A stretch of DNA of 64,000 nucleotides from Deltaproteobacteria bacterium (GCA_020632995.1 JACKEN010000003.1:372677-436676), one strand, 5' to 3'; shown: positions 359 to 34,336, counted from the first letter of the stretch. Program-made: numbers and translations. The notes: a model not told the origin generated them from the sequence alone.

Positions 359-1612
359 TCACCGCTCGAAGGGCGTCAGGTGCACCAGGATCCGCCGCTC
401 GGGCTTGAAGGCGTCCCGCGCCGCCCGCTGCAGCGCGGCCGGGCTCGGGCGGGACGGGTGCAACAGAGCCTGCAGGGTCGCGGTGCGCTCTGGCCCCGAG
501 CGGAGCAGCGCGGGGTGGAGGCGATTGGCGAGCGCGCCCGGATCGGCCCACGCCGCCCGCAGCTGGGCATCCTCACGTCGGCGGATCAGCGCGACCTCCT
601 TGCCGCTCGTCGGCGTCGACGCCGCGCTCGCGAAGGTCTCCTCCACCAGATCCGGCAGCACCGCCCCTTGGAAGGAGCCGCTGATCGTCGTCGCCAGCAG
701 CAGCCGATGACCGCGCAGGCTCGTGCACCTCACGCTCACCTGCGACGCCAGGGCGTCCTCGGCGATGATCTCGGACGTCAGCCTCAGCTCGAGGAGCCGG
801 GACAGGGCCTCGCAGGACGGCGCGTCCAGCTCGGGCACGTGGTACCCGAAGATCACCCCGGTCAGGGGGCCTGGCACGCTCTGGCTCACCGGGACGTTCA
901 GGTCCATCGCCGCCAGCTGCGGAGCCTCGACGTCGGGCTGGGGCGGCCAGTGGACGTGCTCGGACAGCAGCAACTCGACCTGCGCCTTGCTCACGTCCCC
1001 CACCACCATGAACGTGGTGTTGTTCGGCACGTAGTGCTGCGCGTAGAACTCGGTCAGATCCCGAAACGTCAGCTGCCACCTCGTGTTCGTGCTGCCGATG
1101 ACCGGCGGACCTCCGCGGTTGCCCGGAAACAGCACCAGGTCGGCGAGCCAGTGCAGGCCCCGGGCCGAGAACATCTGCGCCTCCACGTCGACGACCCCCA
1201 GCTCCTTGTCGAGGGTGGACAAGGTGACCGCGGGGTTGGTGACCGCGTCGAGGTAGCGCCCCGCCAGGGCGAGCCACGCCCCCTTGGGGGCCTCGAGCTG
1301 ATACTGGGTGTCATCGGGGCTCGTGAAGGCGTTGTAGGTCGCGCCCTCGACCTCGATGAGATCCTGCAGGTCATCGCCGCCGAGGTCGTAGGTGCCGTGG
1401 AAGATGAGGTGCTCCAGCACGTGGGCGAGCCCGTTGCGCTTCCACGGGTCCTGGGCCGCCCCCGAGCGCACGACCACACGTAGCGCAACACGAGTTGCGC
1501 CGGGTACCTGGACGAGCACCACGTCGAGCCCGTCCGCGGTGTCGAACTGCTCGGCCTGGAGGCTGGGCGCCGCGGCGGCGAGGGTCATGAGGAGCGCCGA
1601 TCCGATGATCAT
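359..1612 (-). CDS. M16-family zinc peptidase (pitrilysin/insulinase-like), probable active subunit, secreted
   Basis: Inverzincin HxxEH motif HVLEH near the N-terminus; signal-peptide-like MIIGSALLMTLAAAA at the trimmed start; start ATG overlaps the upstream stop by 4 bp (ATGA). Upstream part of the 359..1675 ORF rejected as run-on. Confidence 0.8.
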   Translation of the reverse strand: MIIGSALLMTLAAAAPSLQAEQFDTADGLDVVLVQVPGATRVALRVVVRSGAAQDPWKRNGLAHVLEHLIFHGTYDLGGDDLQDLIEVEGATYNAFTSPDDTQYQLEAPKGAWLALAGRYLDAVTNPAVTLSTLDKELGVVDVEAQMFSARGLHWLADLVLFPGNRGGPPVIGSTNTRWQLTFRDLTEFYAQHYVPNNTTFMVVGDVSKAQVELLLSEHVHWPPQPDVEAPQLAAMDLNVPVSQSVPGPLTGVIFGYHVPELDAPSCEALSRLLELRLTSEIIAEDALASQVSVRCTSLRGHRLLLATTISGSFQGAVLPDLVEETFASAASTPTSGKEVALIRRREDAQLRAAWADPGALANRLHPALLRSGPERTATLQALLHPSRPSPAALQRAARDAFKPERRILVHLTPFER

Positions 1613-2871
1613 CTCTTCGGCCTCCCCTCGGTCGGGGACAGGACCACGTGCGCGACCCGCTCCGACGACGCCCACGGCGCGATCTGGGCCCGAAACTCCG
1701 CGAAGGTCATGGCGCGCGCCGCCGCGACGACGGCGGGATCGAACCAGGGCACCTGGCCCTTGCCCATCGCCAGCTCGGTCGCGAGCGCAATCGGTGTTGC
1801 GTCGACACGCTCGACGTCGTGCAGCAGGATCCGCTGGTAGCGCTCGAATGCCTGCTCGTCGAACGCATCCCCGGCGCCCACCTCACCGATGAGGCGGTTC
1901 AGCTCCCGCTCGATGGGGAACGACGGGTCGCCGTACGTCGGCACGGTGATCAGCAGGAACTGCAGCCACGGGCGCCGCAGGACCGAGACTTCGGTGGCGT
2001 AGCTGACCCCCGCGGCGCGGAAGCGCCGCTGCACGCGGGCGCGCAGCACTACCCCGAGCATCCGCATCGCCGCCGCCTGCTCAGGCGTGCCGAGGGGGGC
2101 CGGCAGCCCGACCAGCCGGACCTCGAAGCGCGCCGACATCCGGTGCACCCCGGCGACGGTGGTCCGGCGCTCCGCCTCCGGTCGACGGGCCCCGCCTCGG
2201 AACGAGCGCACGACCTTGCTCAGGCGCGGGCTGGAGAATCCGCCGGCCAGGACCACGGTGGCGTTGGCGGGGCGGAAGTGCTTCGCGATGTGGGCCTGCA
2301 CCTGGCCGAAGGTCAGGTTGGACATGATGGTGTGGTCGCCGTCGGGGCTCTCCGCGAAGCCGTAGTCGGCCATCGCGGCCTGGCTGAACAGGGCCGCCTC
2401 GTCGATCCCTGTGGACCCGAGGTCCTGGTGGTACATGCGCCGGACCGCCTCCTTGAACGCGCCCCGGTCGAGGTCGGGAGACAGGATCTGCCGGAGCAGG
2501 CGCTCCGCGAGGTCGTCGAACGCGCCCCGCGCGCCCTCGACCACGAAGCGGCAGCTGAGCTGGCCGGTGGTGACCTCGACGGTGGCGTCGGCCCCGTAGA
2601 CCAACTCGGTCCGGCGGGCCGAGGACATCCGCCGGCTCGCCTCGAGCAGGACGTATTGCGAAAGGTGGGTGATGCCGGAGCTCACCCCGTCGTCGACGCC
2701 GCCCACCCCGAACTCGATGATCATCGCGGCGCGCTCGACGTCCCGCGGCGCGACGACCAACAGCGGTCGCGCGTCGGTGGGCGGCAAGACCACTTGCTGC
2801 GCCAGGGTCGGGGCCTCGCCGGGGAGCCCCGCGATGGCGCCGTAGGTCGCCCACAGCAGCAGGGAGTTCAT
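1609..2871 (-). CDS. M16-family peptidase-like protein, probable non-catalytic partner subunit
   Basis: Same two-domain M16 architecture but HxxEH degenerate (HLSQY); signal-like MNSLLLWATYGAIAG at the internal ATG; ATGA overlaps with both neighbours. Confidence 0.7.
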   Translation of the reverse strand: MNSLLLWATYGAIAGLPGEAPTLAQQVVLPPTDARPLLVVAPRDVERAAMIIEFGVGGVDDGVSSGITHLSQYVLLEASRRMSSARRTELVYGADATVEVTTGQLSCRFVVEGARGAFDDLAERLLRQILSPDLDRGAFKEAVRRMYHQDLGSTGIDEAALFSQAAMADYGFAESPDGDHTIMSNLTFGQVQAHIAKHFRPANATVVLAGGFSSPRLSKVVRSFRGGARRPEAERRTTVAGVHRMSARFEVRLVGLPAPLGTPEQAAAMRMLGVVLRARVQRRFRAAGVSYATEVSVLRRPWLQFLLITVPTYGDPSFPIERELNRLIGEVGAGDAFDEQAFERYQRILLHDVERVDATPIALATELAMGKGQVPWFDPAVVAAARAMTFAEFRAQIAPWASSERVAHVVLSPTEGRPKR

Positions 2872-3659
2872 CGTCGCCTCCGCGCCTGGATGCTCCGGAT
2901 CAGGTCGGGGGAGGCCCGAAGCGCGTGTGGCCCCGGCCCGCCCTCGACCGCGAAGCCCATCCGCTCGATCCGGGACCGCGTCGCGACGTACAGCGGGGGC
3001 TGCTCGCTCTGCCCGGCCCGGAAGAGGTGATCGAGGCGGTTCTCCCACCAGCTGGGGGTCTGACCGCCGAAGATCATGTCCCGCACCGGGCCCTGCTGAT
3101 CCTCGTTGGGCGGCGCGGGGGCCGGAGCCGGGGCCGGGGCCGGGGCGAGCTCGGGCGGCGGTGCCACCGGGGCCGCCTCGGTGAGGACGACCGATGCCGG
3201 CTCGGCCTCGCCCGGCAAGGTCGATTGCAGGAGCGGGGACGGCGCGCGGTAGCTGTGGTACGCGAGCGCCCCGGCCACCCCTACCCCGACCACGAGCAAC
3301 GCGAGGACTACCGGGGCCCGCCTCGGGCGCCGGCCCACGCGCGGCGCCGCGCTGACCCTCGGGCGCTGGGCGACGGGCCGCGGCGGGGGCGGCGCGGCAA
3401 CGCTGGGCGCGATCAGGTCGTCGGTGAAGACGACCGGCGGCGCGGGGGGCGGCACCTCCAACAGCAGCGCGTCATCGGGCAACCGAGGCAGGTCTTCGCT
3501 CGGCAGCTCGAGGAACTCGTCCTCGGCCGCGAACGTCTCGCCGCAGCCGGGACAGACCCGGTGCGGCTCGGGATCAGCCCTCGCCTCCAAGACAGACTCA
3601 GGCCCGCACGTCGGACACCATGGACCGTCGTAGATGGGGGTGCCACGGCCGAGACCCAT
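2868..3659 (-). CDS. Zinc-ribbon (CxxC..CxxC), proline-rich single-pass membrane protein
   Basis: WCPTCG...VCPGCG double CxxC at the N-terminus; central hydrophobic helix VVLALLVVGVGVAGALAY; APAPAPAPAP low complexity; stop overlaps downstream M16 start. Confidence 0.55.
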   Translation of the reverse strand: MGLGRGTPIYDGPWCPTCGPESVLEARADPEPHRVCPGCGETFAAEDEFLELPSEDLPRLPDDALLLEVPPPAPPVVFTDDLIAPSVAAPPPPRPVAQRPRVSAAPRVGRRPRRAPVVLALLVVGVGVAGALAYHSYRAPSPLLQSTLPGEAEPASVVLTEAAPVAPPPELAPAPAPAPAPAPPNEDQQGPVRDMIFGGQTPSWWENRLDHLFRAGQSEQPPLYVATRSRIERMGFAVEGGPGPHALRASPDLIRSIQARRRR

Positions 3660-3756
3660 GCCCCGGAGCCTAGGCAGACCGCCCTCGATCTCGCCATTGC
3701 TGAAAGTCCGACCTGTCCCTAGGGTCAGGATCCGTGGCGCATGGCGAGACTCCAGC

Positions 3757-6700
3757 TCAGCTCGGCGAGAACCGCGCGCGCACCGCGTACATCGCGGCGG
3801 CGAGGAGGAGCGCGGCGAACATCAGGAGCGGCACGTGCAGCGCCGCGCACCACAACCCGAGGGCGAGGACCAGGATCAGCACCATGAGGAGCCCGATGAG
3901 CGCCAGGTAGAGTCTGCGGAGGCAGATCCCGACGACCACCAGGAACAGGGCCGCGACGGTCCATAGGCAGAGGTGCTCGAGCAGCCAGCCCACGCCCCGC
4001 GGTGGCGTCTTGCACGCCGGCTCGTCGCCGGGGCCCCACGGCGTCGGATCGGAGCCATCGGGCACGCCGTCTCCGTCGCTGTCGGTGTCCACGACGTTGT
4101 CCTGGCCGTCCCCGTCGATGTCGCCGTCGGGCTCGAGGCCGTCGGGGATCCCGTCGTCGTCGCTGTCCGGGTCCAGCTGGTTCGGGACGCCGTCGTGGTC
4201 GGCGTCGCCCTGCACCTCGTGGTCGTCGGGCCGCCCGTCCCCGTCTTGGTCGCCCGTGGGGGGCCACGGGACGGTGAGGCTCCCGGTCGCCGTCGTGGCC
4301 GGACCCTGGCAGCCCTGGGGTGGGAAGTAGGCGGCCACGCCCCACGTACCGCCCTCCACGGTGGCGTAGCTGTCCTCGTAGCACCCGAACGCGTCGGTGG
4401 TGACCTCGTGATAGACAGGGTTCCCCGCGGGGTCCGTGTACTTCAGGATCACCGTCTGGTTCGGCAGCGGCGGGTCGGTGCAGCCGGCGGCGTGCAGCCT
4501 CGCGCAGCGCTTCGTCGAAGCCGCGGAGGCCTCGACGTTCAGGCCCGACTTGCGCTCGTCGCAGCGCGACAGGTCGGGCTTCACGTCAAGCTGCGTGTTG
4601 TGGCGGAGGTCGACGTCCACGGTGGCCCCGCCCACGCGGATGAGGGTGTCACCGCGCGGCCGCCACGCGGTCACGAACATCCGATGGTCCGTGCAGTTCG
4701 GGGCGTCGACGGGCGGCCGGACGTCGAGCGCGCCGACGACGGAGGCACCGGGCAGCAGGAGCCGCTTCGGGGGCGTGAGCACGCGATCCCAGGTCCCCGG
4801 GACGTCCTCGGCGCGGAAGTACACGAGCTTCGGCGTCGACTCCGTGTTCTCCAGCTGGAAGTCGAAGTGGACGGGCTGGTAAGGGCTGTGGCTCGTCGAA
4901 TACTCGACCTGCAAGTTCTGTTGCGCATCATCGTCCGAGGCGTTGCTGTTCTTGAACAGCCGCCGGATCTCCACCCGCACGCAGCTGTGCGGATCGTCGG
5001 CGCTCAGCGGCCTCCAGACCGCGTAGACGTCGGCGTGGGCGCCGGGGTCCAGCTTGGGGATCAGCACGATCTTGTGCAGGTCGAATTGCCCATCGGTCCC
5101 CACCGTGTGGTACGGATCCGAGAGCAGGAAGTGCACCTCGAAGTCGTAGGCGGTGCCCGGGCCGTCGTTGTAGATGCGGGCGTAGATCCGATTGTCCTGC
5201 CCCCCGAGCGGCCTCTCCCCTGACGGTCCGGTCGGTTGCCCCAGGTCCGCGGCGTAGCCGCCGCCGTCACGCTGGTTGTCGACCCAGATGTCGGGGCTCT
5301 CCCACTCGTGGGCCCCGCGGCGGATGCGCACGTTGTAGTCGTCGAAGGGCGGCGCCCAGTCGATCTCGATCGAGTACCCGTTCGCGGCCGGCAGCTCGGA
5401 GACCACGCGCATGGTGATGCCGGTGCCCGCCGGCGCGTCGGTGTCCCCCACCCCGAAGGCCGCGTCGTCGACGGTGTCGGTGCCGGGGGCGTGGTCGCGC
5501 AGCAGGACCGGGGCCTGCCCCTGCGGGATCAGCCGGTTCGCGGTGTACGCGAGCACCCCGCGCATCGGGACCACCGCGTCGTAGTCGCCCAGGTTCGGGC
5601 TGCGCGCCTCGACCCAGTAGAACTGCGTCTCGTCGGTGAGCGCGGTGACCCCGGGGGTGAGGCCGAGCGCGATGCCGACCGTCTCCCCCGCGAGCGCGCT
5701 GCTGTTGAAGACCAGCGGCATCGGTGCGCCGTTGATGGGGGCGGTCGGCGCGGGGCGCGGGATGTAAGTGATCTTGCGGTTGGCGCCGGTGACCCAGGTG
5801 GCGAGCTCCTTCGACCAGGTCAGGGGGTGCGCCCCGGTCTCCGGTCTCGCCATGTCGTCCCAGCCGTCGACCACGTGCGGCTTGGGGAAGGTGACATTCT
5901 CGTGGATGTAGAGGTCCTCGAGACCCACCTGATGCGCGAAGCCGTGGGCGAACACGGGCAGCGGGTTGTTCGGGCCCTGGATCGACACCGACAGGAACCG
6001 GATCCCGGTCGGGGTGGTGTACGGCCACAGGCCGGTCGTGGCGTAGTCCCGGTCGAAGGCGGAGTCGTTGAGCACCAGGATGACCCGGTCGATGTCGTCG
6101 CCGGGGGCCGCGGTGGGGCCGTCGAGCACCGCAGGTTCACTTGCGATCGCGAGGCCGAGCGCCTCCTCGGCGAGCTCGACCGCGGGGTGGAGCTCCGCCG
6201 CCTCGTAGAACGCGAGGGGGTGCGCCAGGGTGACCGGCCCGCGATACAGCGGGTCGATGCTCGTGGCCCCGTAGCTCGCCTCGCTCACCCACGCCGAGAG
6301 CTCGTCGATGCGCGCGCTCACCGTGCCGGGATCGGCGTCGCCGGCGACGTCGGGGAGGTTTACGCGGAGCACGAGGGTGTCCTGATCGCCGATCGGGGTG
6401 GGGCCCTGGCTCACCCTCACCGTGCGCAGCGCGAGGTTGTTGTTGAGGCGGATCTGGTCCGTGCCCGTCCCGGTCTCCGTCGGATCGAAGGCCGCCACCA
6501 CCCGCGCCAACAGGGCCATGTCCTCGCTGATCGCGGCGGGTGAGGCCGGCGCGGGGGGCTCCCACAGCAGCGGTCCGAGGACGACGTAGGCGCCCGGGCC
6601 CAGCTCCGGGACGCTGAGGGTGTTGCTCGCCGCCCCCTTCGCGAATGCGGCGTCGACCGCGAACAGGCCGCTCGACTTCCAGTCGTCGGGGAACAGCAAG

Positions 6701-7932
6701 GGGCTGCCGTGGTGGGCCCAGAAGATCCGCAGCTGCGCGCTCGGCGCGACGAGGGTGCCCCGGTTCGCGACGCCGGCGTAGACGTACACCGCGTGTCCGG
6801 CGGTCACGCTCTGGAACGCGTAGGCCTCCAGACCCGAGGTCGCCGCGGCGCTCACGTCGACGTCGTGATCGTGCCGCACCAGCAGGTCTGGTGACGCGAG
6901 CGCGAAGGCGGCGTTCGAGGGCTGCACGCCGGGGTCCGTCAGGTAGTCCCGCGCGAACAGGTCGAAGGGCGGCGGGTCGAGCGGGCCGCGGAACGCCACC
7001 ACCCGCTTCGCCTGCGAGTCGACGACGTAGACGTGCCCGCCTCGCAAGGTGACCTTCTCCGGCCGCATCATCAGCGGCGCGACGGCCAGGTTCTGGGCGT
7101 GCGCGCCGGTGCTCTTCAGGATCTCGATGCGGTGGTTGTCGGTGTCCGCGACGTACATGCGGCCGTCGGGGCCGAGGGCCACGTCGCGCGGGAAGCGAAA
7201 GGCTCCGTTCTGGGCGCCGAAGAACCCGAAGCTCACCGAGGGTCCGGTGGTCGGGTAGCGGACGATACGGTGGTGATCGGTGTCGGCGACCACGATCGTG
7301 CCGTCCGCGCCGACGTCCAGGCCGTAGGGGTTGAGGAGCGTCGCGTCGGTGCGCTCCACGCTCCACGCGGTGTCGTTCGGCCCGTCCGCGACGAGGATGC
7401 GGCGGTTGCCGGAGTCGAGCAGATGGATCTTGCCGTCCGCGCCGATCGCGATGTCGCGGGGCAGGGCGTTGGGCACGCCGTCGACGGTGGAGGCGTTCGT
7501 GCCGCAGAACGTCGGGTCGTAGGTGTACGTGCCGGCGACCGCGTCGTAGCGGAACAGGCGCACGTCGCCGGCGAAGGTGTCCACGACGTAGACGTTGCCG
7601 CCGCCGTCGACGGCGATCGCCTGGGGTTCGTGCAGGGAGGCGGCGTCGCCGATCGAGGGCGTGGCGCCGTGGGCGACCCACTTGGTCGGGTCGCCCAGGT
7701 CCGCGAGCGGCCGGACCAGGAAGCGGTGCGCGCCCGCGTCGCTGACGAAGAGCCGAGCCTCGCCGGCGTCCACGGCGACCCCCATCGGGAGCGTGAGCGT
7801 CCCCGCGATCACCTGCGGGGGTCCGAACTCCAGGCTGTCCGCGCGGGCCGGGGTCGCGCACACCACGACCCCCACGGCGGTGAAGGACAACGCGAGTGGA
7901 GACCAATGGGGCGCGTGCGTCATGGCGTTCAC
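3757..7932 (-). CDS. Giant secreted/membrane-anchored protein: six NHL repeats (beta-propeller), M6-like zincin-like region with degenerate HGFAH motif, C-terminal TSP3 Asp-rich calcium-binding repeats, C-terminal TM helices
   Basis: Signal peptide; six repeats of the YVxDxxNHRIxxF NHL type; VFAHGFAHQVGLEDLY around aa 660-675; DxDxDGxxD repeats near the C-terminus, followed by about 80 hydrophobic residues; coding-like codon bias; ATG overlaps upstream stop (ATGA). Confidence 0.8.
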   Translation of the reverse strand: MNAMTHAPHWSPLALSFTAVGVVVCATPARADSLEFGPPQVIAGTLTLPMGVAVDAGEARLFVSDAGAHRFLVRPLADLGDPTKWVAHGATPSIGDAASLHEPQAIAVDGGGNVYVVDTFAGDVRLFRYDAVAGTYTYDPTFCGTNASTVDGVPNALPRDIAIGADGKIHLLDSGNRRILVADGPNDTAWSVERTDATLLNPYGLDVGADGTIVVADTDHHRIVRYPTTGPSVSFGFFGAQNGAFRFPRDVALGPDGRMYVADTDNHRIEILKSTGAHAQNLAVAPLMMRPEKVTLRGGHVYVVDSQAKRVVAFRGPLDPPPFDLFARDYLTDPGVQPSNAAFALASPDLLVRHDHDVDVSAAATSGLEAYAFQSVTAGHAVYVYAGVANRGTLVAPSAQLRIFWAHHGSPLLFPDDWKSSGLFAVDAAFAKGAASNTLSVPELGPGAYVVLGPLLWEPPAPASPAAISEDMALLARVVAAFDPTETGTGTDQIRLNNNLALRTVRVSQGPTPIGDQDTLVLRVNLPDVAGDADPGTVSARIDELSAWVSEASYGATSIDPLYRGPVTLAHPLAFYEAAELHPAVELAEEALGLAIASEPAVLDGPTAAPGDDIDRVILVLNDSAFDRDYATTGLWPYTTPTGIRFLSVSIQGPNNPLPVFAHGFAHQVGLEDLYIHENVTFPKPHVVDGWDDMARPETGAHPLTWSKELATWVTGANRKITYIPRPAPTAPINGAPMPLVFNSSALAGETVGIALGLTPGVTALTDETQFYWVEARSPNLGDYDAVVPMRGVLAYTANRLIPQGQAPVLLRDHAPGTDTVDDAAFGVGDTDAPAGTGITMRVVSELPAANGYSIEIDWAPPFDDYNVRIRRGAHEWESPDIWVDNQRDGGGYAADLGQPTGPSGERPLGGQDNRIYARIYNDGPGTAYDFEVHFLLSDPYHTVGTDGQFDLHKIVLIPKLDPGAHADVYAVWRPLSADDPHSCVRVEIRRLFKNSNASDDDAQQNLQVEYSTSHSPYQPVHFDFQLENTESTPKLVYFRAEDVPGTWDRVLTPPKRLLLPGASVVGALDVRPPVDAPNCTDHRMFVTAWRPRGDTLIRVGGATVDVDLRHNTQLDVKPDLSRCDERKSGLNVEASAASTKRCARLHAAGCTDPPLPNQTVILKYTDPAGNPVYHEVTTDAFGCYEDSYATVEGGTWGVAAYFPPQGCQGPATTATGSLTVPWPPTGDQDGDGRPDDHEVQGDADHDGVPNQLDPDSDDDGIPDGLEPDGDIDGDGQDNVVDTDSDGDGVPDGSDPTPWGPGDEPACKTPPRGVGWLLEHLCLWTVAALFLVVVGICLRRLYLALIGLLMVLILVLALGLWCAALHVPLLMFAALLLAAAMYAVRARFSPS

Positions 7933-8645
7933 TCGAGGAGGTTGTCTGCGAACAAGAGCGTGCCGCCCTCGTCGTAGACGAGCCGGAGGTGACTACGCTC
8001 CGACTCGGGGAGGCCCGCCGCCGGACCCTTGCCAGGGACGGGCCTCGTGCCTCGCAGGTTGATCACCCAGACCGGCGCGGGGGCGCCGCCGCGCGTCGCC
8101 ATCATCACCCGCTTGATGCGGACCTCGTGGGCGTGCTCGAGGTCCGCGAACCCTTGCTGCGCGGCGCGCGCGAGCAGCTCGGGGACGCCGAGCTTGGGGG
8201 GCGCCGCCACCAACCCCACGTAGCGGCTGTCGGTGGCGGCCATCCTCGCCTCGAGGGCGGCCCGATCCGGGATCGGAGGCTCGAGCGTCGCCGCGCCGTC
8301 GCTGGGCACCGACTGCCACGCCACGAGGGCGCCGCTCGCGGGGTCGAGGGTCACCTCGAAGCCGGACAGGTTGCGGTTCTTCGGCAGCACCGCCTCGCTC
8401 TTGCCGGTCAGGCGCCAGACCTCGGACGGCACCGCGACGAACGGGATCCGGGCAAGGCCCGGTCCCGGCGCGGCGCGGGCCGCGGCGGGCGAGGCGGTCA
8501 CCCGGAGCACGTCCTTGACGTGGCGCGCGGCGTCCTCCGCGGTCTTCAGCGGCCGCGGGCCGTGGGGGCCGTCCTGACCGCCCGCGGGGGGGCACGCGAC
8601 GAGGCACGCGAGGAGCGCGAGCGGCGACGGGTTCCACTTCATCAT
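7929..8645 (-). CDS. Small secreted lipoprotein (about 238 aa), unknown function
   Basis: Internal start MMKWNPSPLALLACLVACPP (lipobox-like); the preceding 180 codons of ORF 7929..9194 are the run-on frame across the upstream gene end; start ATG overlaps the upstream stop and the stop overlaps the downstream ATG. Confidence 0.6.
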   Translation of the reverse strand: MMKWNPSPLALLACLVACPPAGGQDGPHGPRPLKTAEDAARHVKDVLRVTASPAAARAAPGPGLARIPFVAVPSEVWRLTGKSEAVLPKNRNLSGFEVTLDPASGALVAWQSVPSDGAATLEPPIPDRAALEARMAATDSRYVGLVAAPPKLGVPELLARAAQQGFADLEHAHEVRIKRVMMATRGGAPAPVWVINLRGTRPVPGKGPAAGLPESERSHLRLVYDEGGTLLFADNLLE

Positions 8646-11600
8646 CAGTACTCCACGACCTGATCCCACATGTCGACGCTGGCGGCGCCGTTGAAGGTGT
8701 AGGCCCACTCGGGCGACGTCGCGGGGTTGAAGGCGGCGCCGTTCTTGTCGATGTCCGTGATCTTCACGTCGGCGGCCGCGTAGGCCGTCGCGCCCCACAC
8801 GCCGGCGTCGTTCACCTGCATGTTGGTGAGGACGCACTTGTTGGCCGCGGTCCCCGGGTTCTGATCCACGGAGTGGAACATCTCGCTGCCGAACTGGTAG
8901 TTCGGGAGGCGCCGCGTCTTCCACTCCACGTGGGTGAAGCTGTCCCACTCTACGCCGCCGATGCGCGCGACCACCTTGCCGGTGGCTACGTCCTCCACCG
9001 CCGCGCTGAAGTCGCCGGCCGTCCAGCCCCCGGCGGGCTTGAGCTTGTAGTAGTGCCCCCCGGCCGTCCCCGTGTTCACCTCGAAGTACACCGCCGTGGT
9101 GGCGGCAGCGGCGGCGGCGTTGCGGTCCACGGCGAGGCCGGTCTGGATCCAGTAGTCGCCGGTGACGGTGCCCATGTCCTGGACGCTGAACCACACGTTC
9201 GTGGAGGCGAACGTCCGCATCGGCGCCGGCGACCAGTCGACCTTCGCCTCCGGCGACGCGATGTTCCCGCGCATCCCCATCAGCGTCGTGGTGGGGTGGT
9301 TGTGGCTCCCGTTGATGCGATAGCGCACCGCCCCCCCGGCGGGGTCGCGATCGACATTGGCGACGACCTTGACGTCGTCCGCCGCGAGCACGTGGTTGGA
9401 GCTGTCCAGCAGCACGAGGCTCAGCAGGACGTTGCCGTGGTTGAAGCTCTCCATCGCGTAGGACAGATCCCCGGCGGTGATCTTCGCGGTCGGGACCACG
9501 AACACGTCCTTGTCAGGACCGCCGTCGGCCATCTTCGGACCGATGACGCCGTTGGTCTTCGTGTCGTCGAAGATCCGCAGCGGCGCCCGGTCCGCCGCCG
9601 TCCACGGCATGCCGGTGGCGGAGTTCGCGCTGCGCAGCTCGACCTTGCCCCCGGGCGGGACGAAGTCGATCTTGCGCAGCAGGAGCGTGGTGAGCTGCGC
9701 GACGTCGGCGGCGCCGTTCGTCGCGTTGTCGAGGTGATCTGCGTTGCCGTCGCCGTCGTTGTCGTCGTTGTTGACATTGACGATCATCGCCTTGGCGTCG
9801 AGCTCGTGGCCGTCGTCGGTCAGCCCGATCGTGCCGTCCATGTCCGTGTCGAGGTCCAGATCCACCGCGGCGACGTGGAGCACCCAGCTTCGGGTGGCGA
9901 GCGGGAAGCCCGTGTCGTCCTGCATCTCGAGGGTCAGCGTCGCATCGCCGGCCCCGATGCCTTCGGCGAACACGTTGGCCGGGATGGTGTCGGCGAGGAG
10001 GTCCCAGGGGGTCGCGAGGGAGAACGGCGCGGTCTTCACCGCGGTGGTCGACAGCGCCGCGTTCCCCGCCCCGACATCGAACCGCAGGTCAGCGTGCATC
10101 GGGACGCCGGTCGGCAGCACCACCACCGAGAAGGCCACGAGGTCGTTCTCGCCGAGGATCGGGCCGGGCTGGTTCGCGTCGCGGACGCCGTTGACGTCGT
10201 CGTCGTCGTCGTTGAGCCGCAGGAACGCCTCCGGCGGCGCGACGCCGAGGTCGCCGGCGGCGGGGGTCAGCGACAGGTAGTAGACGACGACGTGATGCGG
10301 TGCGCTCTTGCCGAAGCTCGCGAAGCTCGAAGACAGCGCCTCGATCTGCACCGTGTACTCACCGGGCGGCACCGTGACGCCGGCGGACTTGCCGTCCCAG
10401 TGGAAGGTCCCGCTCGCGGCCGCGCCGAGGTCGACCTCGGCCACCAGCGTCGACGAGGCGTCGCGAACGCGCGCGATGCAGTGGCCGAGGGTGACCGACC
10501 CGAGCACCTGGTACGGTACGTCGATGGTGCTCGTCCCCGCTTCGAGCGGGTCGCGCTCGACGTAGCGGGTGGCCGCGGCGCCGATCTTCACCTCCGCGAC
10601 CTCGATCCAGATCGCGTCCGGCTGGGCGTCGCCGTAGGTCGTCGGTCCGAGCAGGGCGTCGTCCAGGGTCAGGACGACGGTGTAGAAGCCGGGCTGCGGC
10701 AGGGCCCCCGAGGCGCCGTAGCCGTTCCAGTGGAAGGCGAGGACCGATCCCTTGGTGGAGGCCAGGACGTTCGGGTCCCAGGCGGTGAAGACCGGGACCA
10801 GGCTGCCCTGGGGGAACACGTCGAGCCGGGTGAAGAGGCCGAACGAGAACAGCGGGTCGTCGTAGAGGGTGGCGTCGACGAAGTAGGAGATCATCACGTC
10901 GGTGTCGCTCGCCAACTCCACGAAGGCCGGGAACACGGTGGTCGGCGCGTTGATGCACACCGCGGTCGGGCAGTTGCCGATCGTGACGTAGGTCGTCTGG
11001 CTCCCATGGAAGGCCGGCGTGTCGTCGTCGGTGACGTCCACCGAGATGCTCCAGGTGCCCATGCAGGCGGGGGGGATCGCCGCCCCCGCTGTGAACAGGG
11101 TGAGGGTGGTCAGCGTTGCCCCGGAGGTGATGGAGGGCCCGAGCCCGCAGCCCGCGGGCGCGACGAAGGACCAGGCATAGTCCGAGATCCCGGTGCCGTA
11201 CTGCGTCGGGTCGCCGAGGAGGAAGTTGTCGAGGTCGACCGCGAACACCGACACCGCGATGTCGGCGAGGGTGACGCCGCCGGTGGTCTCGAAGCGCGCC
11301 GACGGTGAGATGAAGACCAGAGGGGGCACGTTGGGGTCGTTGATGAGCACGTCTTCGGTGTCCGAGCCGCTCGTCGTCTCGGCGTCGGCGATCTCCAGCG
11401 AGAACCCCCACTGGCCCGGTTTGATGTTCGAGAACGGGATCGTCGCCGTGGGGCCGCTCGCGGTGACGCCGAGCGCGTCGTCGACCCGGCCCGGGAAGAA
11501 CGTGGCGCTCTGCTCGATGGGGATGTCGATCAAGCTCCACGTGTACTGCGTGACGCCGCCCGAGATCCCCGCCACCGGGCGCCCGTCCGTGACATGGCAG

Positions 11601-13051
11601 TCGTGCGCGGGGTCGAGGGGGCAGTCCGAGTCGGGGTCCCAGGAGCGGCGCCCATCGAGGACGAGCGGAAACGAGAGGAACGAGATCGTCCCGGGACCGT
11701 CGATGTTCGCCTGCGGCGGCGCGTTGACGAGCACGGAGAAGGTGTCCTTCACGCTCTCGCCCTCGTTGTCGGTCACGGTCAGCTCGAAGACCCAGGTGCC
11801 CGCGTCGAGGAAGGTGGTCGGCATCGAGATCGTCGGCAAGCTGCTGTACCCGGTCTGTAGCCCGGCGGTGCCGCTGCCCGGCGCCTGGACGATGTCCCAG
11901 CGATAGGTGAGCGCGCCGCCGTCGAGGTCCGCGGTGAACGTCGTCTCCGCCTGCACCAGGTCTCCGATCTCCACCCGCGGGCTCCCGGAGAAGTGGATCT
12001 CGGGGGGGATGTTCTTGACCTCGATGGTGTGATCCGCGGTGCCCGTGGTGCTCTCGTTGTCGGTCGCGGTGACGTGGAACTTCCAAACCCCGATGTCGAT
12101 GTCGGTCGTCGGCAGGACGAGGGTGGCGGTGGTGGCGATGTTGCTGGCCGGGGCGTGCGAAGCGCCCGACGGTGACTGCACCAGGTCCCACGAGAAGGTC
12201 AGGTTGCCGCCGTCGACGTCGGTGGTCGGCGTGATCTGCAGGCTGATGTCCTGGGTGGCGTCGACGCTCGCTGGCCCGGTGATGGAGATCGACGGTGGCA
12301 CGTTGGGGACCTTGAAGGTATGGGTGAAGGTCTTGCGCTCCCCTTCGTTGTCGTCGAGGAGGAGCTGGAACGTCCAGTCCCCCAGATCGGCGTCGCTCGT
12401 GAACGCGATGCTCGGGTCCGCGGTGTTGGCCCCGGACAGCGTCTTGGAGGACGACGCGGGCTTGTGGGTGATGCTCCAGGAGTGCTTCAGCGCGCCTCCA
12501 TCCGGGTCGTTGCTGTGGGCGTGCAGGTGCACGGTGGCGTTCCAGGCCGGCGCCGGGTCGTGGGTGATGCTCGCGGTCGGCGGATTGTTGAACACGTCGA
12601 CGATGTAGTGCAGCGGCTCGGAGCAGTGGTACACGTAGCCCGGGTCGCAGGTGGGGGTGCAGGTCCCAGCACAGGCCGCGGGGTTGGCGGCCAGGCAGTC
12701 ACAGTCGATCTTCCAGGTCCCGACGTCGAGGAGGGAGAGGAACCGAAACGAGAAGTCGGCGCAGCACTGCCCGCTCGAGCAGTTCATCCAGCAGGCGGGC
12801 ACCACGCCAAACTCGGCCGACGTGGTCTGGTGACCGGGATCGCTCCCCGGCGCGATGGTGATGCCGTTCGCGCCCGGGTGGGTGACGATCACGCACGAGA
12901 AGCCGAAGATGGCGTCGACCCCACCATCCACGCACTCGCCGTAGGGCTGGGTCGTCTTGACGAGGTGGCTCATGTGGACGGTGTTGCCCGCGCGCGCCGC
13001 GCCCGGCGCGAGCAGCAACGCGAGCGGCACGAGGAAGCGGCGGGCCATCAT
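8645..13051 (-). CDS. Giant secreted protein with Cys-rich N-terminal module and multiple PKD/Ig-like beta-sandwich repeats
   Basis: Signal peptide MMARRFLVPLALLLAPGAARA at the internal ATG pair; at least four repeats introduced by N[VIA]PP..I.[GS]P... (NVPPSISITGP, NIPPEIHFSGSP, NAPPQANIDGPG, NVPPLVFISPS); Cys-rich block CWMNCSSGQCC...CDCLAANPAACAGTCTPTCDPGY; ATGA overlaps at both ends. Confidence 0.8.
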   Translation of the reverse strand: MMARRFLVPLALLLAPGAARAGNTVHMSHLVKTTQPYGECVDGGVDAIFGFSCVIVTHPGANGITIAPGSDPGHQTTSAEFGVVPACWMNCSSGQCCADFSFRFLSLLDVGTWKIDCDCLAANPAACAGTCTPTCDPGYVYHCSEPLHYIVDVFNNPPTASITHDPAPAWNATVHLHAHSNDPDGGALKHSWSITHKPASSSKTLSGANTADPSIAFTSDADLGDWTFQLLLDDNEGERKTFTHTFKVPNVPPSISITGPASVDATQDISLQITPTTDVDGGNLTFSWDLVQSPSGASHAPASNIATTATLVLPTTDIDIGVWKFHVTATDNESTTGTADHTIEVKNIPPEIHFSGSPRVEIGDLVQAETTFTADLDGGALTYRWDIVQAPGSGTAGLQTGYSSLPTISMPTTFLDAGTWVFELTVTDNEGESVKDTFSVLVNAPPQANIDGPGTISFLSFPLVLDGRRSWDPDSDCPLDPAHDCHVTDGRPVAGISGGVTQYTWSLIDIPIEQSATFFPGRVDDALGVTASGPTATIPFSNIKPGQWGFSLEIADAETTSGSDTEDVLINDPNVPPLVFISPSARFETTGGVTLADIAVSVFAVDLDNFLLGDPTQYGTGISDYAWSFVAPAGCGLGPSITSGATLTTLTLFTAGAAIPPACMGTWSISVDVTDDDTPAFHGSQTTYVTIGNCPTAVCINAPTTVFPAFVELASDTDVMISYFVDATLYDDPLFSFGLFTRLDVFPQGSLVPVFTAWDPNVLASTKGSVLAFHWNGYGASGALPQPGFYTVVLTLDDALLGPTTYGDAQPDAIWIEVAEVKIGAAATRYVERDPLEAGTSTIDVPYQVLGSVTLGHCIARVRDASSTLVAEVDLGAAASGTFHWDGKSAGVTVPPGEYTVQIEALSSSFASFGKSAPHHVVVYYLSLTPAAGDLGVAPPEAFLRLNDDDDDVNGVRDANQPGPILGENDLVAFSVVVLPTGVPMHADLRFDVGAGNAALSTTAVKTAPFSLATPWDLLADTIPANVFAEGIGAGDATLTLEMQDDTGFPLATRSWVLHVAAVDLDLDTDMDGTIGLTDDGHELDAKAMIVNVNNDDNDGDGNADHLDNATNGAADVAQLTTLLLRKIDFVPPGGKVELRSANSATGMPWTAADRAPLRIFDDTKTNGVIGPKMADGGPDKDVFVVPTAKITAGDLSYAMESFNHGNVLLSLVLLDSSNHVLAADDVKVVANVDRDPAGGAVRYRINGSHNHPTTTLMGMRGNIASPEAKVDWSPAPMRTFASTNVWFSVQDMGTVTGDYWIQTGLAVDRNAAAAAATTAVYFEVNTGTAGGHYYKLKPAGGWTAGDFSAAVEDVATGKVVARIGGVEWDSFTHVEWKTRRLPNYQFGSEMFHSVDQNPGTAANKCVLTNMQVNDAGVWGATAYAAADVKITDIDKNGAAFNPATSPEWAYTFNGAASVDMWDQVVEY

Positions 13052-14220
13052 GGCCTCCGGGGGCTCGGTACGTTCGGCTTGCCCGGGCCCGCGCGCAGAG
13101 GACCCTCCGCCGCCGGGCCCGCGGCGGGTGGACCGAAGCGCGCCTCGGAGAACTCGGCGTAGCGCGGCGTGAAGCGGTCCTCGATCTTCGCCGCGGCCCG
13201 CAGCGCACTGACCAGCTCGCCCCGCCGCGCCGAGAAGCGGGCGGCCTCGATCGCCCCCAGGATCTCCGGCCGCGCCTCCTGCAGGCTGCGTTTCACCTCT
13301 GGCACGCGCTCGCGTCCGAACAGGAGCACCGCGCGATCGTCGAGCGCCACCACCTCGGACATGGCCCCCTCCGCGAGGCCATCGAGCGCCCGCCACAGGG
13401 CTGGCGCGAGGGTCTGCGAGGTCGCGTCGCCCAGGTCGCCGCCGAAGTCTCGCGACGGCGCATCGGAGACCGCCCGCGCCATGGCCGCGAACGAGAGGCC
13501 TTCGCGGGCGATCCGGTCCCGCAGCGCGCGGAGATCACGAACCCGCGCCACCACGTCGGCGTCGGGCCGAGCGATGAAGACGATCTCATTGCCCCGGCGG
13601 TGCGCGGGCCGGACGAAGCGGACGCGGTTGCGAGCGTAGAACGCCTCGACGTCGGCGTCCGTGATCGCCGGCGGGGGGCCGAGCAGCTTGCGGGTGAGGA
13701 CGAGGATCTCTTGCGCCCGCGTCGCGTCCGCGGCGTTGGGGCCGGCCATGTAGCGCTCGAAGGACGCCGGGGACGGGAACGTCGCGCCGAACGCCGCGAG
13801 CGCGTCGTCCCGCTCGGTCGCTGACACAGTGAGCCCCCGGCGCGTCGCGGCCTCACGGACGAGCGCCTCGTCCACCAGCTCGGCGATCACCGCCCGCTTG
13901 AGCCGGAACGCCGACACCTGGTCTGCGCCCGCGACGTTGGCGCGCTGAAACCGCTGCGCGAAGCGGCGGTTGACGTCCGCCGCCGGGATGGGGACGCCGT
14001 CGAGCGACACGGGCGACGTGGTCTCGGGGAGGGCCGCGTTCGGAGGGGCGGGCGAGTCGACCTTCGGGGGTTTCTTGGGCGGCGTAGGCGCCGGGCACCC
14101 CGTCGCGAGGACGATGAGGACGCACAGGGCGCCAGGGCCTGCGGCTCCGACCAAGAGTCTTCGTTTCACCGTCTCCCCCCCCGGAGCGATCAGCGCTCGT
14201 CCTATTCCCTGCGTGACCAA
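13048..14220 (-). CDS. SurA/PpiC-type peptidyl-prolyl cis-trans isomerase lipoprotein (parvulin domain)
   Basis: Lipoprotein-like LCVLIVLATGCPAP; parvulin-like DFGGDLG motif with flanking SurA-like chaperone region; first gene of the coupled operon; start codon uncertain (14220 or a downstream GTG). Confidence 0.65.
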   Translation of the reverse strand: MVTQGIGRALIAPGGETVKRRLLVGAAGPGALCVLIVLATGCPAPTPPKKPPKVDSPAPPNAALPETTSPVSLDGVPIPAADVNRRFAQRFQRANVAGADQVSAFRLKRAVIAELVDEALVREAATRRGLTVSATERDDALAAFGATFPSPASFERYMAGPNAADATRAQEILVLTRKLLGPPPAITDADVEAFYARNRVRFVRPAHRRGNEIVFIARPDADVVARVRDLRALRDRIAREGLSFAAMARAVSDAPSRDFGGDLGDATSQTLAPALWRALDGLAEGAMSEVVALDDRAVLLFGRERVPEVKRSLQEARPEILGAIEAARFSARRGELVSALRAAAKIEDRFTPRYAEFSEARFGPPAAGPAAEGPLRAGPGKPNVPSPRRP

Positions 14221-14599
14221 CTCCTACGCCTTTGTCTCGCGGTTCTCAATGGTGGCGCTGCGGACCTACTTTTCCCTTCAGATGAACTGCCCGAGGCGGC
14301 GTCTCTACCGCCAATCCCGGGAGTCTTCAGGGTCCAAAGCAACCATCGTCAACCTTGGTTGCGATCGACGAGCGCCTCGGGCTGGGTGAGGTTGTAGATC
14401 CTCGACCTTGACCCACGTGTGCCAGCCGTTCTCGCCGTGAGCCTCGGCGAAAGCCGACTTGCATCGATGCCGCGCTTCGTGCTCGCGGGAGCAGGCGTGT
14501 GACCGGTCCCTGCCAGGACGCGTGAACCCGAGCCACCGAAACAGGTTCCCGTCGATTGCGGTCCGCGGCCGATCGCCGAGGTTCGGGCCGACCCCGTCA
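14221..14599. promoter_or_regulatory. Intergenic region upstream of the minus-strand giant operon, presumed promoter
   Basis: About 380 bp non-coding gap between convergent/divergent units; lower GC than flanks; no specific motif identified. Confidence 0.25.
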
Positions 14600-15661: not shown

Positions 15662-15815
15662 CGATGGATAATACAGACAGGTCTGTCTTTCTGCAACTGG
15701 ACATGTACGAGGCGCGATCGTCCTCGATCTGGGCCATCGAGCGGGGCAGGCCCGCGGTAGGGTCGGGCGCCTCGAGGTCTGTCTCGTGGGGAGGTCGGCG
15801 GCTAGTCTCGAGGAC

Positions 15816-30681: not shown

Positions 30682-30902
30682 GTTGTAGGACCTCCGGGGC
30701 GTGACCAAAAGCACGCCATGTACCGCCTCGGGATGCCTGGGAATTCCCGTGGTTTTGGGCTCCGCCGGTATCAGAAGTGCGGGGACGCGGCGGGGGCGCC
30801 CTCAGGAATCCGCGGCCCCCCGAACCCCGACACACCGCGTCATTCTCATGGGTTACGTGAGCTTTTCTAACAAAAAGGCCTTGCCTTCGGGACGCGAGGA
30901 CC

Positions 30903-34326: not shown

Positions 34327-34336
34327 GGCGAGTGCG

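What the first reader, a model, noticed from the sequence alone, without database searches (positions are those of the whole stretch)
359..14220. Seven-gene minus-strand operon coupling a SurA-like PPIase, two giant surface proteins, a small lipoprotein and an M16 peptidase pair
The PPIase, the PKD-repeat giant, the lipoprotein and the NHL/TSP3 giant are linked by three successive ATGA overlaps. After a 97-bp gap the zinc-ribbon protein, M16-B and M16-A are again linked by ATGA overlaps. The arrangement suggests stoichiometric co-production of two huge extracytoplasmic proteins: a dedicated periplasmic folding factor, and a processing protease pair (one active subunit, one degenerate). It resembles a self-contained export, fold-and-process module for a cell-surface complex. 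That role could be adhesion, predation or matrix, but function is not inferable from sequence.
Basis: partly seen in the sequence, partly recalled or inferred. Interest (0 to 1): 0.65.

Follow-up and report, generated by a model that had tools for sequence, protein, structure and literature searches.

The report
Swappable-enzyme two-giant envelope cassette
The seven co-directional genes are real. Only the first four belong to a widespread, undescribed cassette, in which a giant carrier protein has an exchangeable enzyme tip and a matching small partner protein. The M16 peptidase trio is a local neighbour.

Summary
All seven minus-strand genes are real (GC3 0.89-0.95) and tightly packed. Only three of the five claimed ATGA overlaps are exact.

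In 22 related loci from at least eight phyla or classes, three genes always occur together: the PKD giant, a small signal-peptide protein, and the NHL giant. A SurA-like PPIase precedes them in about half. The zinc-ribbon/M16B/M16A trio appeared in no relative whose downstream flank was recovered.

The PKD giant is a conserved carrier of about 1040 aa with an exchangeable C-terminal enzyme. Four classes were seen:
- PADI-type arginine deiminase
- HExxH zincin
- alpha/beta-hydrolase
- in this window, a beta-sandwich whose fold and W..WIQTG..SE motifs resemble eqolisin/neprosin glutamic peptidases

The small downstream protein changes with the enzyme class: 0 of 190 locus pairs share the partner family without sharing the enzyme family. 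Here it is a tandem PepSY-like lipoprotein.

The NHL giant carries an M6-like domain whose catalytic Glu is Gly in all 53 homologues.

Best reading: an envelope-anchored, effector-presenting two-giant complex with a cognate periplasmic inhibitor or immunity partner. The M16 pair is lineage-specific. Function is inferred, not shown.

The parts
13048..14169 (-). SurA/PrsA-like lipoprotein peptidyl-prolyl isomerase. The GTG start at 14169 follows GGGGGGAG; the alternative TTG start is at 14220. It is a frequent but not universal fourth member of the cassette.
   Evidence: Pfam Rotamase_2 39.6 bits (cutoff 27) and SurA_N_3 28.0 bits (cutoff 27.2). Lipobox LATGC. A homologous gene lies directly upstream of the giant in L004, L011, L012, L021, L022, L041, L042, L043, L045 and L046.
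9932..13051 (-). PKD giant, conserved carrier part (aa 1-1040): signal peptide, a Cys-rich N-terminal domain, K319L-like PKD/Ig domains and FlgD-Ig-like domains.
   Evidence: Pfam K319L-like_PKD 6e-18, REJ, PKD_4 and FlgD_ig. It is 32-45% identical to the upstream giant in every full-length related locus.
9347..9931 (-). PKD giant aa 1041-1235: Ig-like, acidic linker region preceding the enzyme tip.
   Evidence: AF2 model. Foldseek matches to PAD3/PAD4 at E about 5e-5, inferred to be their N-terminal Ig domains. Partly low pLDDT.
8648..9346 (-). PKD giant aa 1236-1468: exchangeable C-terminal 'warhead', class W. It is a beta-sandwich resembling glutamic peptidases. Candidate catalytic residues are Q1303 (WIQTG) and E1390 (GSEMF).
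   Evidence: Foldseek: neprosin 7zu8 at E 1.6e-7; scytalidoglutamic peptidase 2ifw/1s2b at E 3e-5. Q and E are invariant in 8 sequences down to 28% identity. Motif order and spacing match SGP Q53/E136, and the SGP sequence was verified. No sequence-profile support.
7929..8645 (-). 238-aa lipoprotein made of two alpha+beta4 (PepSY-like) units. It is the cognate partner of the class-W warhead.
   Evidence: AF2 pLDDT 88.6, pTM 0.83. 75 representative homologues. 10 of 40 family members hit Pfam PepSY, best 6.6e-9. It is present only in class-W cassettes.
3757..7923 (-). NHL giant: signal peptide; NHL beta-propeller (aa 30-315; 6979-7836); M6-like pseudo-metallopeptidase (aa 520-800; 5524-6366; HGFAHQVGLED at 5914-5946); CARDB/Ig-like region; DxDxDG calcium-binding repeats (about 4045-4251); three C-terminal TM helices (about 3769-3987).
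   Evidence: Pfam NHL 8e-24 and CARDB. PDB TRIM71 NHL 4e-28. TIGR03296 at 6.5e-9 over profile positions 29-285 of 286, below the cutoff. HGxxHQxGxxD is conserved in all 53 homologues. 42-57% identical across phyla.
3660..3756 (-). 97-bp intergenic gap that separates the conserved cassette from the lineage-specific trio.
   Evidence: No terminator-like fold and no promoter-like site. Synteny ends here in all relatives.
2868..3659 (-). Zinc-ribbon (CPTCG...CPGCG), single-TM, Pro-rich protein. Not part of the conserved cassette.
   Evidence: Sequence inspection. No Pfam or NCBIfam hit. No tblastn match in any related locus.
1609..2871 (-). Degenerate M16 subunit (HLSQY in place of HxxEH). ATGA-coupled to both neighbours.
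   Evidence: Pfam Peptidase_M16_C 27.7 bits. Motif by inspection. No relatives found in the metagenome scan.
359..1612 (-). Active-type M16 subunit (HVLEH) with a signal peptide.
   Evidence: Pfam Peptidase_M16 3e-20 and M16_C 1e-12. Only two distant relatives in the metagenome scan.

Best explanation
The span holds two units.

Unit 1 (14169-3757) is one member of a horizontally spread cassette with this gene order: an optional SurA-like PPIase, giant A, a small partner, giant B.

- Giant A is a Sec-exported PKD/Ig carrier. Its last 230-900 residues are an exchangeable enzyme. Across lineages this is a PADI-type arginine deiminase, an HExxH zincin or an alpha/beta-hydrolase. In this window it is a probable eqolisin-like glutamic peptidase.
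- The small gene that follows, usually translationally coupled, encodes a signal-peptide protein or lipoprotein. It is replaced whenever the enzyme is replaced. I infer that it binds the enzyme tip specifically and keeps it inactive in the producer's periplasm, following effector/immunity or inhibitor logic. Here it is a tandem PepSY-like lipoprotein, and PepSY is the inhibitory propeptide module of secreted peptidases.
- Giant B co-evolves with the carrier. It consists of an NHL propeller, a zinc-site-retaining but Glu-less M6-like domain, Ig/CARDB domains, calcium-binding repeats and a lineage-specific envelope anchor. I infer it is the binding and anchoring partner that presents or delivers giant A at the cell envelope.
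- The PPIase is a periplasmic chaperone for these beta-rich giants.

Unit 2 (ZnR/M16B/M16A) is a lineage-specific neighbour that may be read through but is not part of the system.

Shown: gene order, conservation, domain swapping, co-variation and motif states. Inferred: every activity, every interaction, the localisation and the target.
For: Conservation:
- All 14 full-length NHL-giant loci from the genome scan, plus 8 further loci from metagenomes, have the PKD giant and a small signal-peptide ORF directly upstream.
- Giant A's stop and the small gene's start overlap or lie no more than 46 nt apart.

Domain swapping:
- Carrier homology ends at about aa 1040.
- C-termini fall into four unrelated classes: PAD (PF03068, 1e-40 to 1e-46, ending GEVHCGT); HEVGH/HELGH zincin; GHSRGG hydrolase; class W.

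Co-variation:
- Small-protein clusters nest exactly inside the enzyme clusters.
- Of 190 locus pairs, 25 share both families, 17 share the enzyme only and 0 share the partner only.

Shuffling:
- NJ trees of the NHL core and of the carrier are largely congruent with each other.
- Classes W, T and PAD are interspersed on them.
- The window's nearest backbones carry W (L009), T (L022) and PAD (L046).

Class W warhead: fold hits to neprosin and SGP, plus invariant Q/E motifs.

Partner: confident two-domain alpha+beta4 model and recurrent PepSY hits in its family.

Pseudo-M6: HGxxHQxGxxD...WDxMA in 53 of 53 homologues, and TIGR03296 hits in 10 of 10 tested.
Against: - No activity, interaction or localisation is shown.
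- The glutamic-peptidase assignment rests on a medium-quality model (pLDDT 70, 7-sequence MSA) and on motifs. GH16 jelly rolls score almost as well, and Pfam, PDB-profile and hhalign searches are all negative.
- The window lipoprotein itself does not hit PepSY, and Foldseek found no significant PDB match.
- No secretion or translocation domain beyond Sec signals was found, so how, or whether, the giants cross the outer membrane is unknown.
- Within each class the partners are 30-50% identical. That is not the hypervariability typical of toxin-immunity pairs.
- Locus pairs are not phylogenetically independent, so the co-variation count overstates the number of events.
Confidence: 0.5

Rival explanations
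1. All seven genes form one self-contained export, fold and process operon. The M16 heterodimer is the dedicated processing protease of the two giants.
For: - Same strand, only a 97-bp gap, and no terminator-like structure in the gap.
- Both M16 subunits have signal-peptide-like N-termini, one active and one degenerate.
- Recruitment in this lineage alone cannot be excluded.
Against: - The ZnR/M16B/M16A trio is absent beside the cassette in every relative with a recovered downstream flank. This includes the closest backbones L009 and L022 and cultured Myxococcus and Pyxidicoccus.
- The only hit is a weak M16A match 9 kb away on the other strand in L012.
- The cassette works without the trio across phyla.
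Confidence: 0.1
2. The small partner is a class-specific steric foldase or a trans-acting pro-domain, comparable to the lipase-specific foldase Lif or a thermolysin propeptide, rather than an inhibitor or immunity protein. On this view the cassette displays degradative enzymes for nutrient scavenging, predation or matrix remodelling, not for antagonism with self-protection.
For: - Partners are periplasmic, sit immediately downstream and are class-specific.
- Several are all-alpha and HEAT-like, as Lif is (sequence inspection).
- PepSY propeptides are both foldases and inhibitors (established knowledge).
- A general periplasmic chaperone gene (SurA-like) often accompanies the cassette.
- Within-class divergence is moderate rather than hypervariable.
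Against: - Repeated replacement of chemically unrelated enzymes on the same co-evolving backbone is more typical of conflict systems than of a metabolic enzyme.
- No Pfam Lipase_chap or other foldase family hit.
Confidence: 0.27
3. The class-W C-terminal domain is not a peptidase. It is a ConA/GH16-like carbohydrate-binding or glycoside-hydrolase module, or a pure adhesin tip, and the lipoprotein is an unrelated structural partner.
For: - GH16 beta-glucanases hit at E 2e-5 to 1e-3, close to the eqolisin scores.
- No sequence-profile link to G1 or neprosin.
- The model is only of medium confidence.
Against: - No ExDxxE GH16 motif is present. The invariant residues are instead W..S, WxQ(T/S)G, YFE and (S/T)E, in the order and spacing of SGP W39, Q53 and E136.
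- The top two hits are the neprosin zymogen.
- The three other classes are all enzymes.
- The partner family is PepSY-like, that is, peptidase-associated.
Confidence: 0.2
4. Chance adjacency of unrelated surface-protein genes with no functional coupling.
For: High-GC genomes pack genes tightly, and overlapping stop and start codons are common.
Against: The same giant/small/giant order recurs in 22 loci across Myxococcota, Acidobacteriota, Alpha-, Beta- and Gammaproteobacteria, Bacteroidota and Elusimicrobia, within otherwise unrelated neighbourhoods.
Confidence: 0.01

Closest known systems
Polymorphic toxin / effector-immunity systems (Zhang, Aravind et al. 2012, PMC3482391); periplasm-acting T6SS effector/immunity pairs (Tae/Tai, Tle/Tli)
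   Same: - A conserved N-terminal carrier with interchangeable C-terminal enzymatic domains.
- A small cognate gene immediately downstream that co-varies with that domain.
- Partners carry signal peptides, as for envelope-acting toxins.
- Zincin and alpha/beta-hydrolase tips are known toxin classes.
   Different: - No T5SS, T6SS, T7SS, RHS or other trafficking or pre-toxin domain.
- An obligatory second conserved giant (NHL/pseudo-M6).
- PADI-type deiminase, eqolisin-like tips and PepSY-like partners are not mentioned in that survey (term search).
- There are few deep classes rather than strain-level hypervariability, and no orphan cassettes were seen.
Lipase / lipase-specific foldase (LipA-Lif) operons and propeptide (FTP-PepSY) control of secreted thermolysin-like peptidases
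   Same: A secreted hydrolase followed by, or fused to, a specific periplasmic partner that binds it before release. PepSY is the inhibitory and foldase propeptide module.
   Different: Here the partner is a separate lipoprotein. The enzyme is the tip of a 1468-aa Ig-rich giant. The same scaffold hosts four unrelated enzyme types. No Lif-family sequence match was found.
Eqolisin (MEROPS G1) and neprosin (G3) glutamic peptidases
   Same: Beta-sandwich fold (Foldseek E 1.6e-7 to 3e-5). Invariant Gln in WxQTG and Glu in (S/T)E, at spacing like SGP Q53/E136.
   Different: No detectable sequence-profile similarity. It sits as a C-terminal domain of a giant surface protein rather than a small secreted zymogen. 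No cis pro-domain was demonstrated.
M6 immune inhibitor A (InhA/PrtV) metallopeptidases
   Same: Full-length match to the TIGR03296 M6 domain profile. The HxxxHxxGxxD zinc-ligand pattern and a following WDxM are retained. Ig/CARDB-like domains follow.
   Different: The score is far below the curated cutoff (36 versus 110.8 bits). The catalytic Glu of HExxH is Gly in all 53 homologues. It is fused to an N-terminal NHL propeller and a C-terminal envelope anchor.
Heterodimeric M16B peptidases (one HxxEH subunit plus one degenerate subunit)
   Same: M16A has HVLEH and M16B lacks the motif. The two genes are adjacent and translationally coupled.
   Different: Preceded by a zinc-ribbon/TM protein. 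No conserved link to the cassette upstream.

Membership tests
Polymorphic toxin system | Homologous proteins share an N-terminal region but carry unrelated C-terminal enzymatic domains | tested here: met
   Carrier homology extends to about aa 1040, followed by four unrelated C-terminal classes.
Polymorphic toxin system | Cognate immunity gene immediately downstream, co-varying with the toxin domain | tested here: inconclusive
   Position and co-variation are met (0 of 190 discordant pairs). A protective function is not testable here.
Polymorphic toxin system | Recognisable trafficking, secretion or pre-toxin processing domain (T5SS/T6SS/T7SS, RHS, PrsW, ZU5 and others) | tested here: not met
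   Only Sec or lipoprotein signal peptides. Pfam and NCBIfam show PKD/Ig, FlgD_ig, NHL and CARDB only.
Polymorphic toxin system | Strain-level polymorphism or orphan toxin-immunity modules | tested here: inconclusive
   The 97%-identical relative L045 has the same warhead and partner. No orphan modules were seen in 20-kb flanks. Swaps are seen between backbones that are about 50-57% identical.
Eqolisin/neprosin glutamic peptidase | Beta-sandwich peptidase fold | tested here: met
   Foldseek hits 7zu8 at 1.6e-7 and 2ifw at 2.9e-5. Caveats: model pLDDT is 70, and GH16 shares the fold.
Eqolisin/neprosin glutamic peptidase | Catalytic Gln/Glu (or Glu/Glu) dyad | tested here: inconclusive
   Q1303 and E1390 are invariant and their order and spacing match SGP Q53/E136. 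No structural superposition at residue level was possible.
Eqolisin/neprosin glutamic peptidase | Sequence-profile membership (Pfam Peptidase_A4 or Neprosin) | tested here: not met
   No hit at E <= 10. hhalign against SGP gave probability 0.1. The PDB profile search was negative.
PepSY domain (PF03413) | Match to the PepSY profile; alpha plus 4-stranded beta unit | tested here: inconclusive
   The window protein gives no hit. 10 of 40 family members hit, best 6.6e-9, though most are below the gathering score. The AF2 model shows two alpha+beta4 units. Foldseek found no significant PDB match.
M6 (InhA) metallopeptidase | HExxH with catalytic Glu; score above the family cutoff | tested here: not met
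   HGxxH in 53 of 53 homologues. TIGR03296 scores 30-36 bits against a cutoff of 110.8. No PDB InhA match.
SurA/PrsA-type parvulin PPIase | SurA N-terminal chaperone domain plus PPIC rotamase domain | tested here: met
   Rotamase_2 39.6 bits (cutoff 27), Rotamase 33.4 (21.7), SurA_N_3 28.0 (27.2).
M16 peptidase pair | HxxEH zinc motif in one subunit and a degenerate partner | tested here: met
   M16A: HVLEH, Peptidase_M16 73 bits. M16B: HLSQY, only M16_C at 27.7 bits.
Single seven-gene operon | Co-transcription across the 97-bp gap | not testable with these tools
   No terminator-like or promoter-like signal. Needs RNA data.

The most novel reading that the evidence does not exclude
This is a previously undescribed, phylum-spanning polymorphic effector system. 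A PKD-giant carrier bears swappable warheads: a PADI-type deiminase, an eqolisin-like glutamic peptidase, a zincin or a lipase-like hydrolase. Periplasmic immunity proteins are co-swapped with the warheads. A conserved NHL/pseudo-M6 giant acts as the delivery or receptor-binding machine. As a corollary, PADI-type deiminases in proteobacteria, Bacteroidota and other non-cyanobacterial groups reside as effector tips of this carrier, and PAD-N/M-like Ig domains are part of the carrier itself.
Probability: 0.3. Interest if true: 0.8.

Novelty: new variant of a known kind. Interest (0 to 1): 0.62.

Why it matters
If the model holds, this is a new carrier architecture for exchangeable extracytoplasmic effectors, found from Myxococcota to Bacteroidota. 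Three consequences would follow:
- Two enzyme types, a PADI-type arginine deiminase and a glutamic peptidase, and a PepSY-like partner would be added to the repertoire. None of them appears in the 2012 polymorphic-toxin survey (term search).
- Hundreds of 'hypothetical NHL/PKD giant' genes would gain a testable function.
- It would give a bacterial context for PADI-type enzymes, and an example of a universally Glu-less M6-like domain retained under strong constraint.

Cultivable hosts (Pyxidicoccus, Myxococcus sp., Zobellia, Alcanivorax) make it experimentally tractable.

Tried and rejected
- Homologue search with the C-terminal 428 aa alone: 0 hits, because acidic low-complexity words swamped the candidate list. 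Repeated with the full protein.
- Sequence-level links of the class-W domain to G1 or neprosin: Pfam at E <= 10, PDB profile search and hhalign against SGP were all negative.
- PDB profile search with the M6-like region: no InhA match.
- Foldseek of the lipoprotein model against PDB: nothing significant.
- Metagenome scans for relatives of M16B (none) and M16A (two distant fragments). The independent distribution of the ZnR/M16 trio therefore could not be mapped.
- PADLOC and Rfam: no hits, so this is not a known defence system and no RNA element is involved.
- Literature searches for the cassette: nothing.
- GH16 membership considered and rejected, because there is no ExDxxE motif.
- SurA as a marker of peptidase classes only: rejected after L046, a PAD-class locus, showed two SurA-like genes.

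Full report
OBSERVATION

The window is about 70% GC. It derives from a MAG annotated 'Deltaproteobacteria bacterium' (NCBI tag H6730_13985). Seven minus-strand ORFs occupy 359-14220. All show GC3 of 0.89-0.95, so all are real genes.

The junctions were read directly:
- SurA-like/PKD giant: ATGA overlap.
- PKD giant/lipoprotein: TGATG, a 1-nt overlap.
- Lipoprotein/NHL giant: GTGA with a GTG start, or a 5-nt spacer to the ATG at 7923.
- A 97-bp gap.
- ZnR/M16B and M16B/M16A: ATGA overlaps.

M16A has HVLEH and M16B has HLSQY. Upstream of the first gene, a saccharopine-dehydrogenase-like gene ends at 14600. It is followed by a terminator-like hairpin at 14371-14346. The 97-bp gap has no terminator-like fold (z +0.86) and no sigma-70-like site.

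CONSERVATION

The NHL giant has 53 close homologues at 41-56% identity. Gene neighbourhoods came from several sources:
- four of those homologues;
- a species-representative genome scan, in which 14 of 30 loci were full-length (analysed);
- seven further look-ups.

All show the same core. A PKD/Ig giant is followed by a 175-320-aa signal-peptide protein, which overlaps it or lies within 46 nt, and then by the NHL giant.

The hosts span many groups:
- Myxococcota, including cultured Myxococcus and Pyxidicoccus
- Acidobacteriota (Thermoanaerobaculaceae, Pyrinomonadaceae)
- Alcanivorax and Chromatiales
- Roseovarius
- Nitrosomonas
- Elusimicrobia
- Flavobacteriia (Zobellia, Allomuricauda)

Their flanking genes are unrelated. 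A SurA-like PPIase gene sits directly upstream in roughly half of the loci: L004, L011, L012, L021, L022, L041, L042 (two copies), L043, L045 and L046 (two copies). No relative has the zinc-ribbon/M16B/M16A trio downstream.

THE PKD GIANT IS A CARRIER WITH AN EXCHANGEABLE ENZYME TIP

Homology between the window protein and its relatives covers aa 1 to about 1040 and then stops. The C-termini fall into four unrelated classes:
1. PADI-type protein-arginine deiminase (PF03068, 1e-40 to 1e-46). These end in GEVHCG(T/S)N..R...WW, which from memory is the same C-terminal motif as animal PADIs.
2. A domain with HEVGH/HELGH, a zincin metallopeptidase motif.
3. A GHSRGG alpha/beta-hydrolase, with weak Chlorophyllase and PETase hits.
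4. Class W: the window, L009, L013, L041-L043 and P0054-P0059.

For class W I predicted the last 428 aa with a 7-sequence alignment (pLDDT 69.9, pTM 0.54). Foldseek against PDB gave these hits:
- neprosin zymogen 7zu8/7zva at E 1.6e-7 and 1.8e-6;
- scytalidoglutamic peptidase 2ifw/1s2b at about 3e-5;
- GH16 jelly rolls from 2e-5;
- PAD3/PAD4 at about 5e-5. I attribute these to the Ig-like first 200 residues matching the PAD N-terminal domains.

In the last 233 aa, eight sequences down to 28% identity keep W..S, W(I/L)Q(T/S)G, YFE and (S/T)E invariant. The order and spacing match SGP W39, Q53 (AILQTG) and E136 (NAEFIIED). My recalled SGP sequence matched 1s2b at 100%. There is no ExDxxE GH16 motif. 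Profile methods find nothing. The peptidase assignment is therefore fold-plus-motif inference, not family membership.

THE SMALL PROTEIN IS THE COGNATE PARTNER OF THE TIP

An all-against-all phmmer of the last 400 aa of giant A and of the small proteins, across 20 loci, gave four enzyme clusters. The small-protein clusters nest exactly within them. Of 190 locus pairs, 25 share both families, 17 share only the enzyme family and none shares only the partner family.

The partners differ by class:
- The class-W partner (window 7929-8645) is a lipoprotein. Exhaustive HMMER finds 75 representative homologues. Of 40 family members, 10 hit Pfam PepSY (best 6.6e-9), and the hits map to both halves. Its AF2 model is confident (pLDDT 88.6, pTM 0.83) and shows two alpha+beta4 units. 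Foldseek finds no significant solved relative.
- Partners of the zincin and PAD classes are all-alpha and HEAT-like by inspection.

Rough NJ trees of the NHL core and of the carrier are largely congruent with each other. Classes W, T and PAD are interspersed on them, and class D is basal. The window's three closest backbones carry W (L009), T (L022) and PAD (L046). Tip and partner have thus been replaced together several times on a co-evolving two-giant backbone. The trees lack bootstrap support, and locus pairs are not independent.

THE NHL GIANT

Its parts, in order:
- signal peptide;
- six-bladed-type NHL propeller (TRIM71 at 4e-28);
- an M6-like domain covering TIGR03296 positions 29-285 of 286. 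All scores are far below the cutoff (30-36 versus 110.8 bits; 10 of 10 homologues tested hit);
- CARDB/Ig region;
- DxDxDG calcium-binding repeats;
- three TM helices.

In all 53 homologues the HExxH glutamate is glycine (HGxxHQxGxxD...WDxMA). The putative zinc ligands are kept but the catalytic base is absent. NHL-less proteins in Actinomycetes, Chloroflexi and other groups share the same Glu-less core.

The C-terminal anchor varies between loci. Some have TM helices, some an OMP beta-barrel (PF13505) and some nothing.

MECHANISM (INFERRED)

Giant A carries an enzyme against an external protein or lipid target. The partner masks the enzyme in the producer's periplasm. Giant B binds and anchors or delivers the carrier. 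The PPIase assists folding.

The main rival for the partner's role is a Lif-like or propeptide-like foldase. The main rival for the class-W tip is a lectin or GH16-like module.

The ZnR/M16 trio may be read through, but it is a lineage-specific neighbour.

COMPARISON AND NOVELTY

The logic matches polymorphic effector-immunity systems. However, no known trafficking domain is present and a second conserved giant is obligatory. A term search of the 2012 survey found none of 'deiminase', 'PepSY', 'NHL' or 'glutamic peptidase'. Literature searches for the cassette found nothing. PADLOC and Rfam were negative.

I rate it a new variant of a known kind, of moderate-to-high interest. All functional claims still need experiments.

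Noticed in passing
window 25948-30714 (-): 1588-aa bacterial alpha-2-macroglobulin (A2M, TED, MG2 and bait-region domains). It is a broad protease trap encoded 12 kb from the cassette.
   Followed up: partly
window 34121-37225 (+) and 42731-46081 (+): Two large molybdopterin-oxidoreductase catalytic subunits (Molybdopterin, Molydop_binding and Fe4S4 domains).
   Followed up: partly
L005, L010, L014, L019, L046 (giant A C-termini): Bona fide PADI-type arginine deiminase domains, ending GEVHCG(T/S)N..R...WW like animal PADIs. They occur as the C-terminal tip of 1600-1700-aa PKD giants in Proteobacteria, Bacteroidota and metagenomic bacteria. This is a genomic context not discussed in the PADI evolution paper PMC8826395.
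   Followed up: partly
window 9347-9931 (giant A aa 1041-1235): The Ig-like region before the class-W tip gives Foldseek matches to human PAD3/PAD4 (E about 5e-5). These presumably match the PAD N-terminal Ig domains, which hints that PAD_N/M-like domains belong to the carrier in non-PAD classes too.
   Followed up: no
L023-L036: NHL-less proteins of about 1300-1570 aa in Actinomycetes, Chloroflexi, Gemmatimonadales, Burkholderiales and Acidobacteriota share the same Glu-less HGxxHQFGxVD core, without a PKD giant upstream. One homologue (P0052) carries a Peptidase_S8 domain. Their context was not examined.
   Followed up: partly
L045 (97%-identical relative) versus window 14220-15865: The closest relative of the cassette has a different upstream neighbour: a 1188-aa gene on the opposite strand, instead of the saccharopine-dehydrogenase-like gene. 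This is consistent with the cassette being mobile or the region being rearranged.
   Followed up: no
L041 3137-4323; L046 15232-16322: An IS3-type transposase and a PIN gene lie upstream of one cassette. A RES-Xre toxin-antitoxin pair lies downstream of another. Both are accessory-genome contexts.
   Followed up: no
window 12560-12976 (giant A aa 26-164): Conserved Cys-rich N-terminal domain of the carrier with no family match. It is a candidate docking domain for the NHL giant.
   Followed up: no
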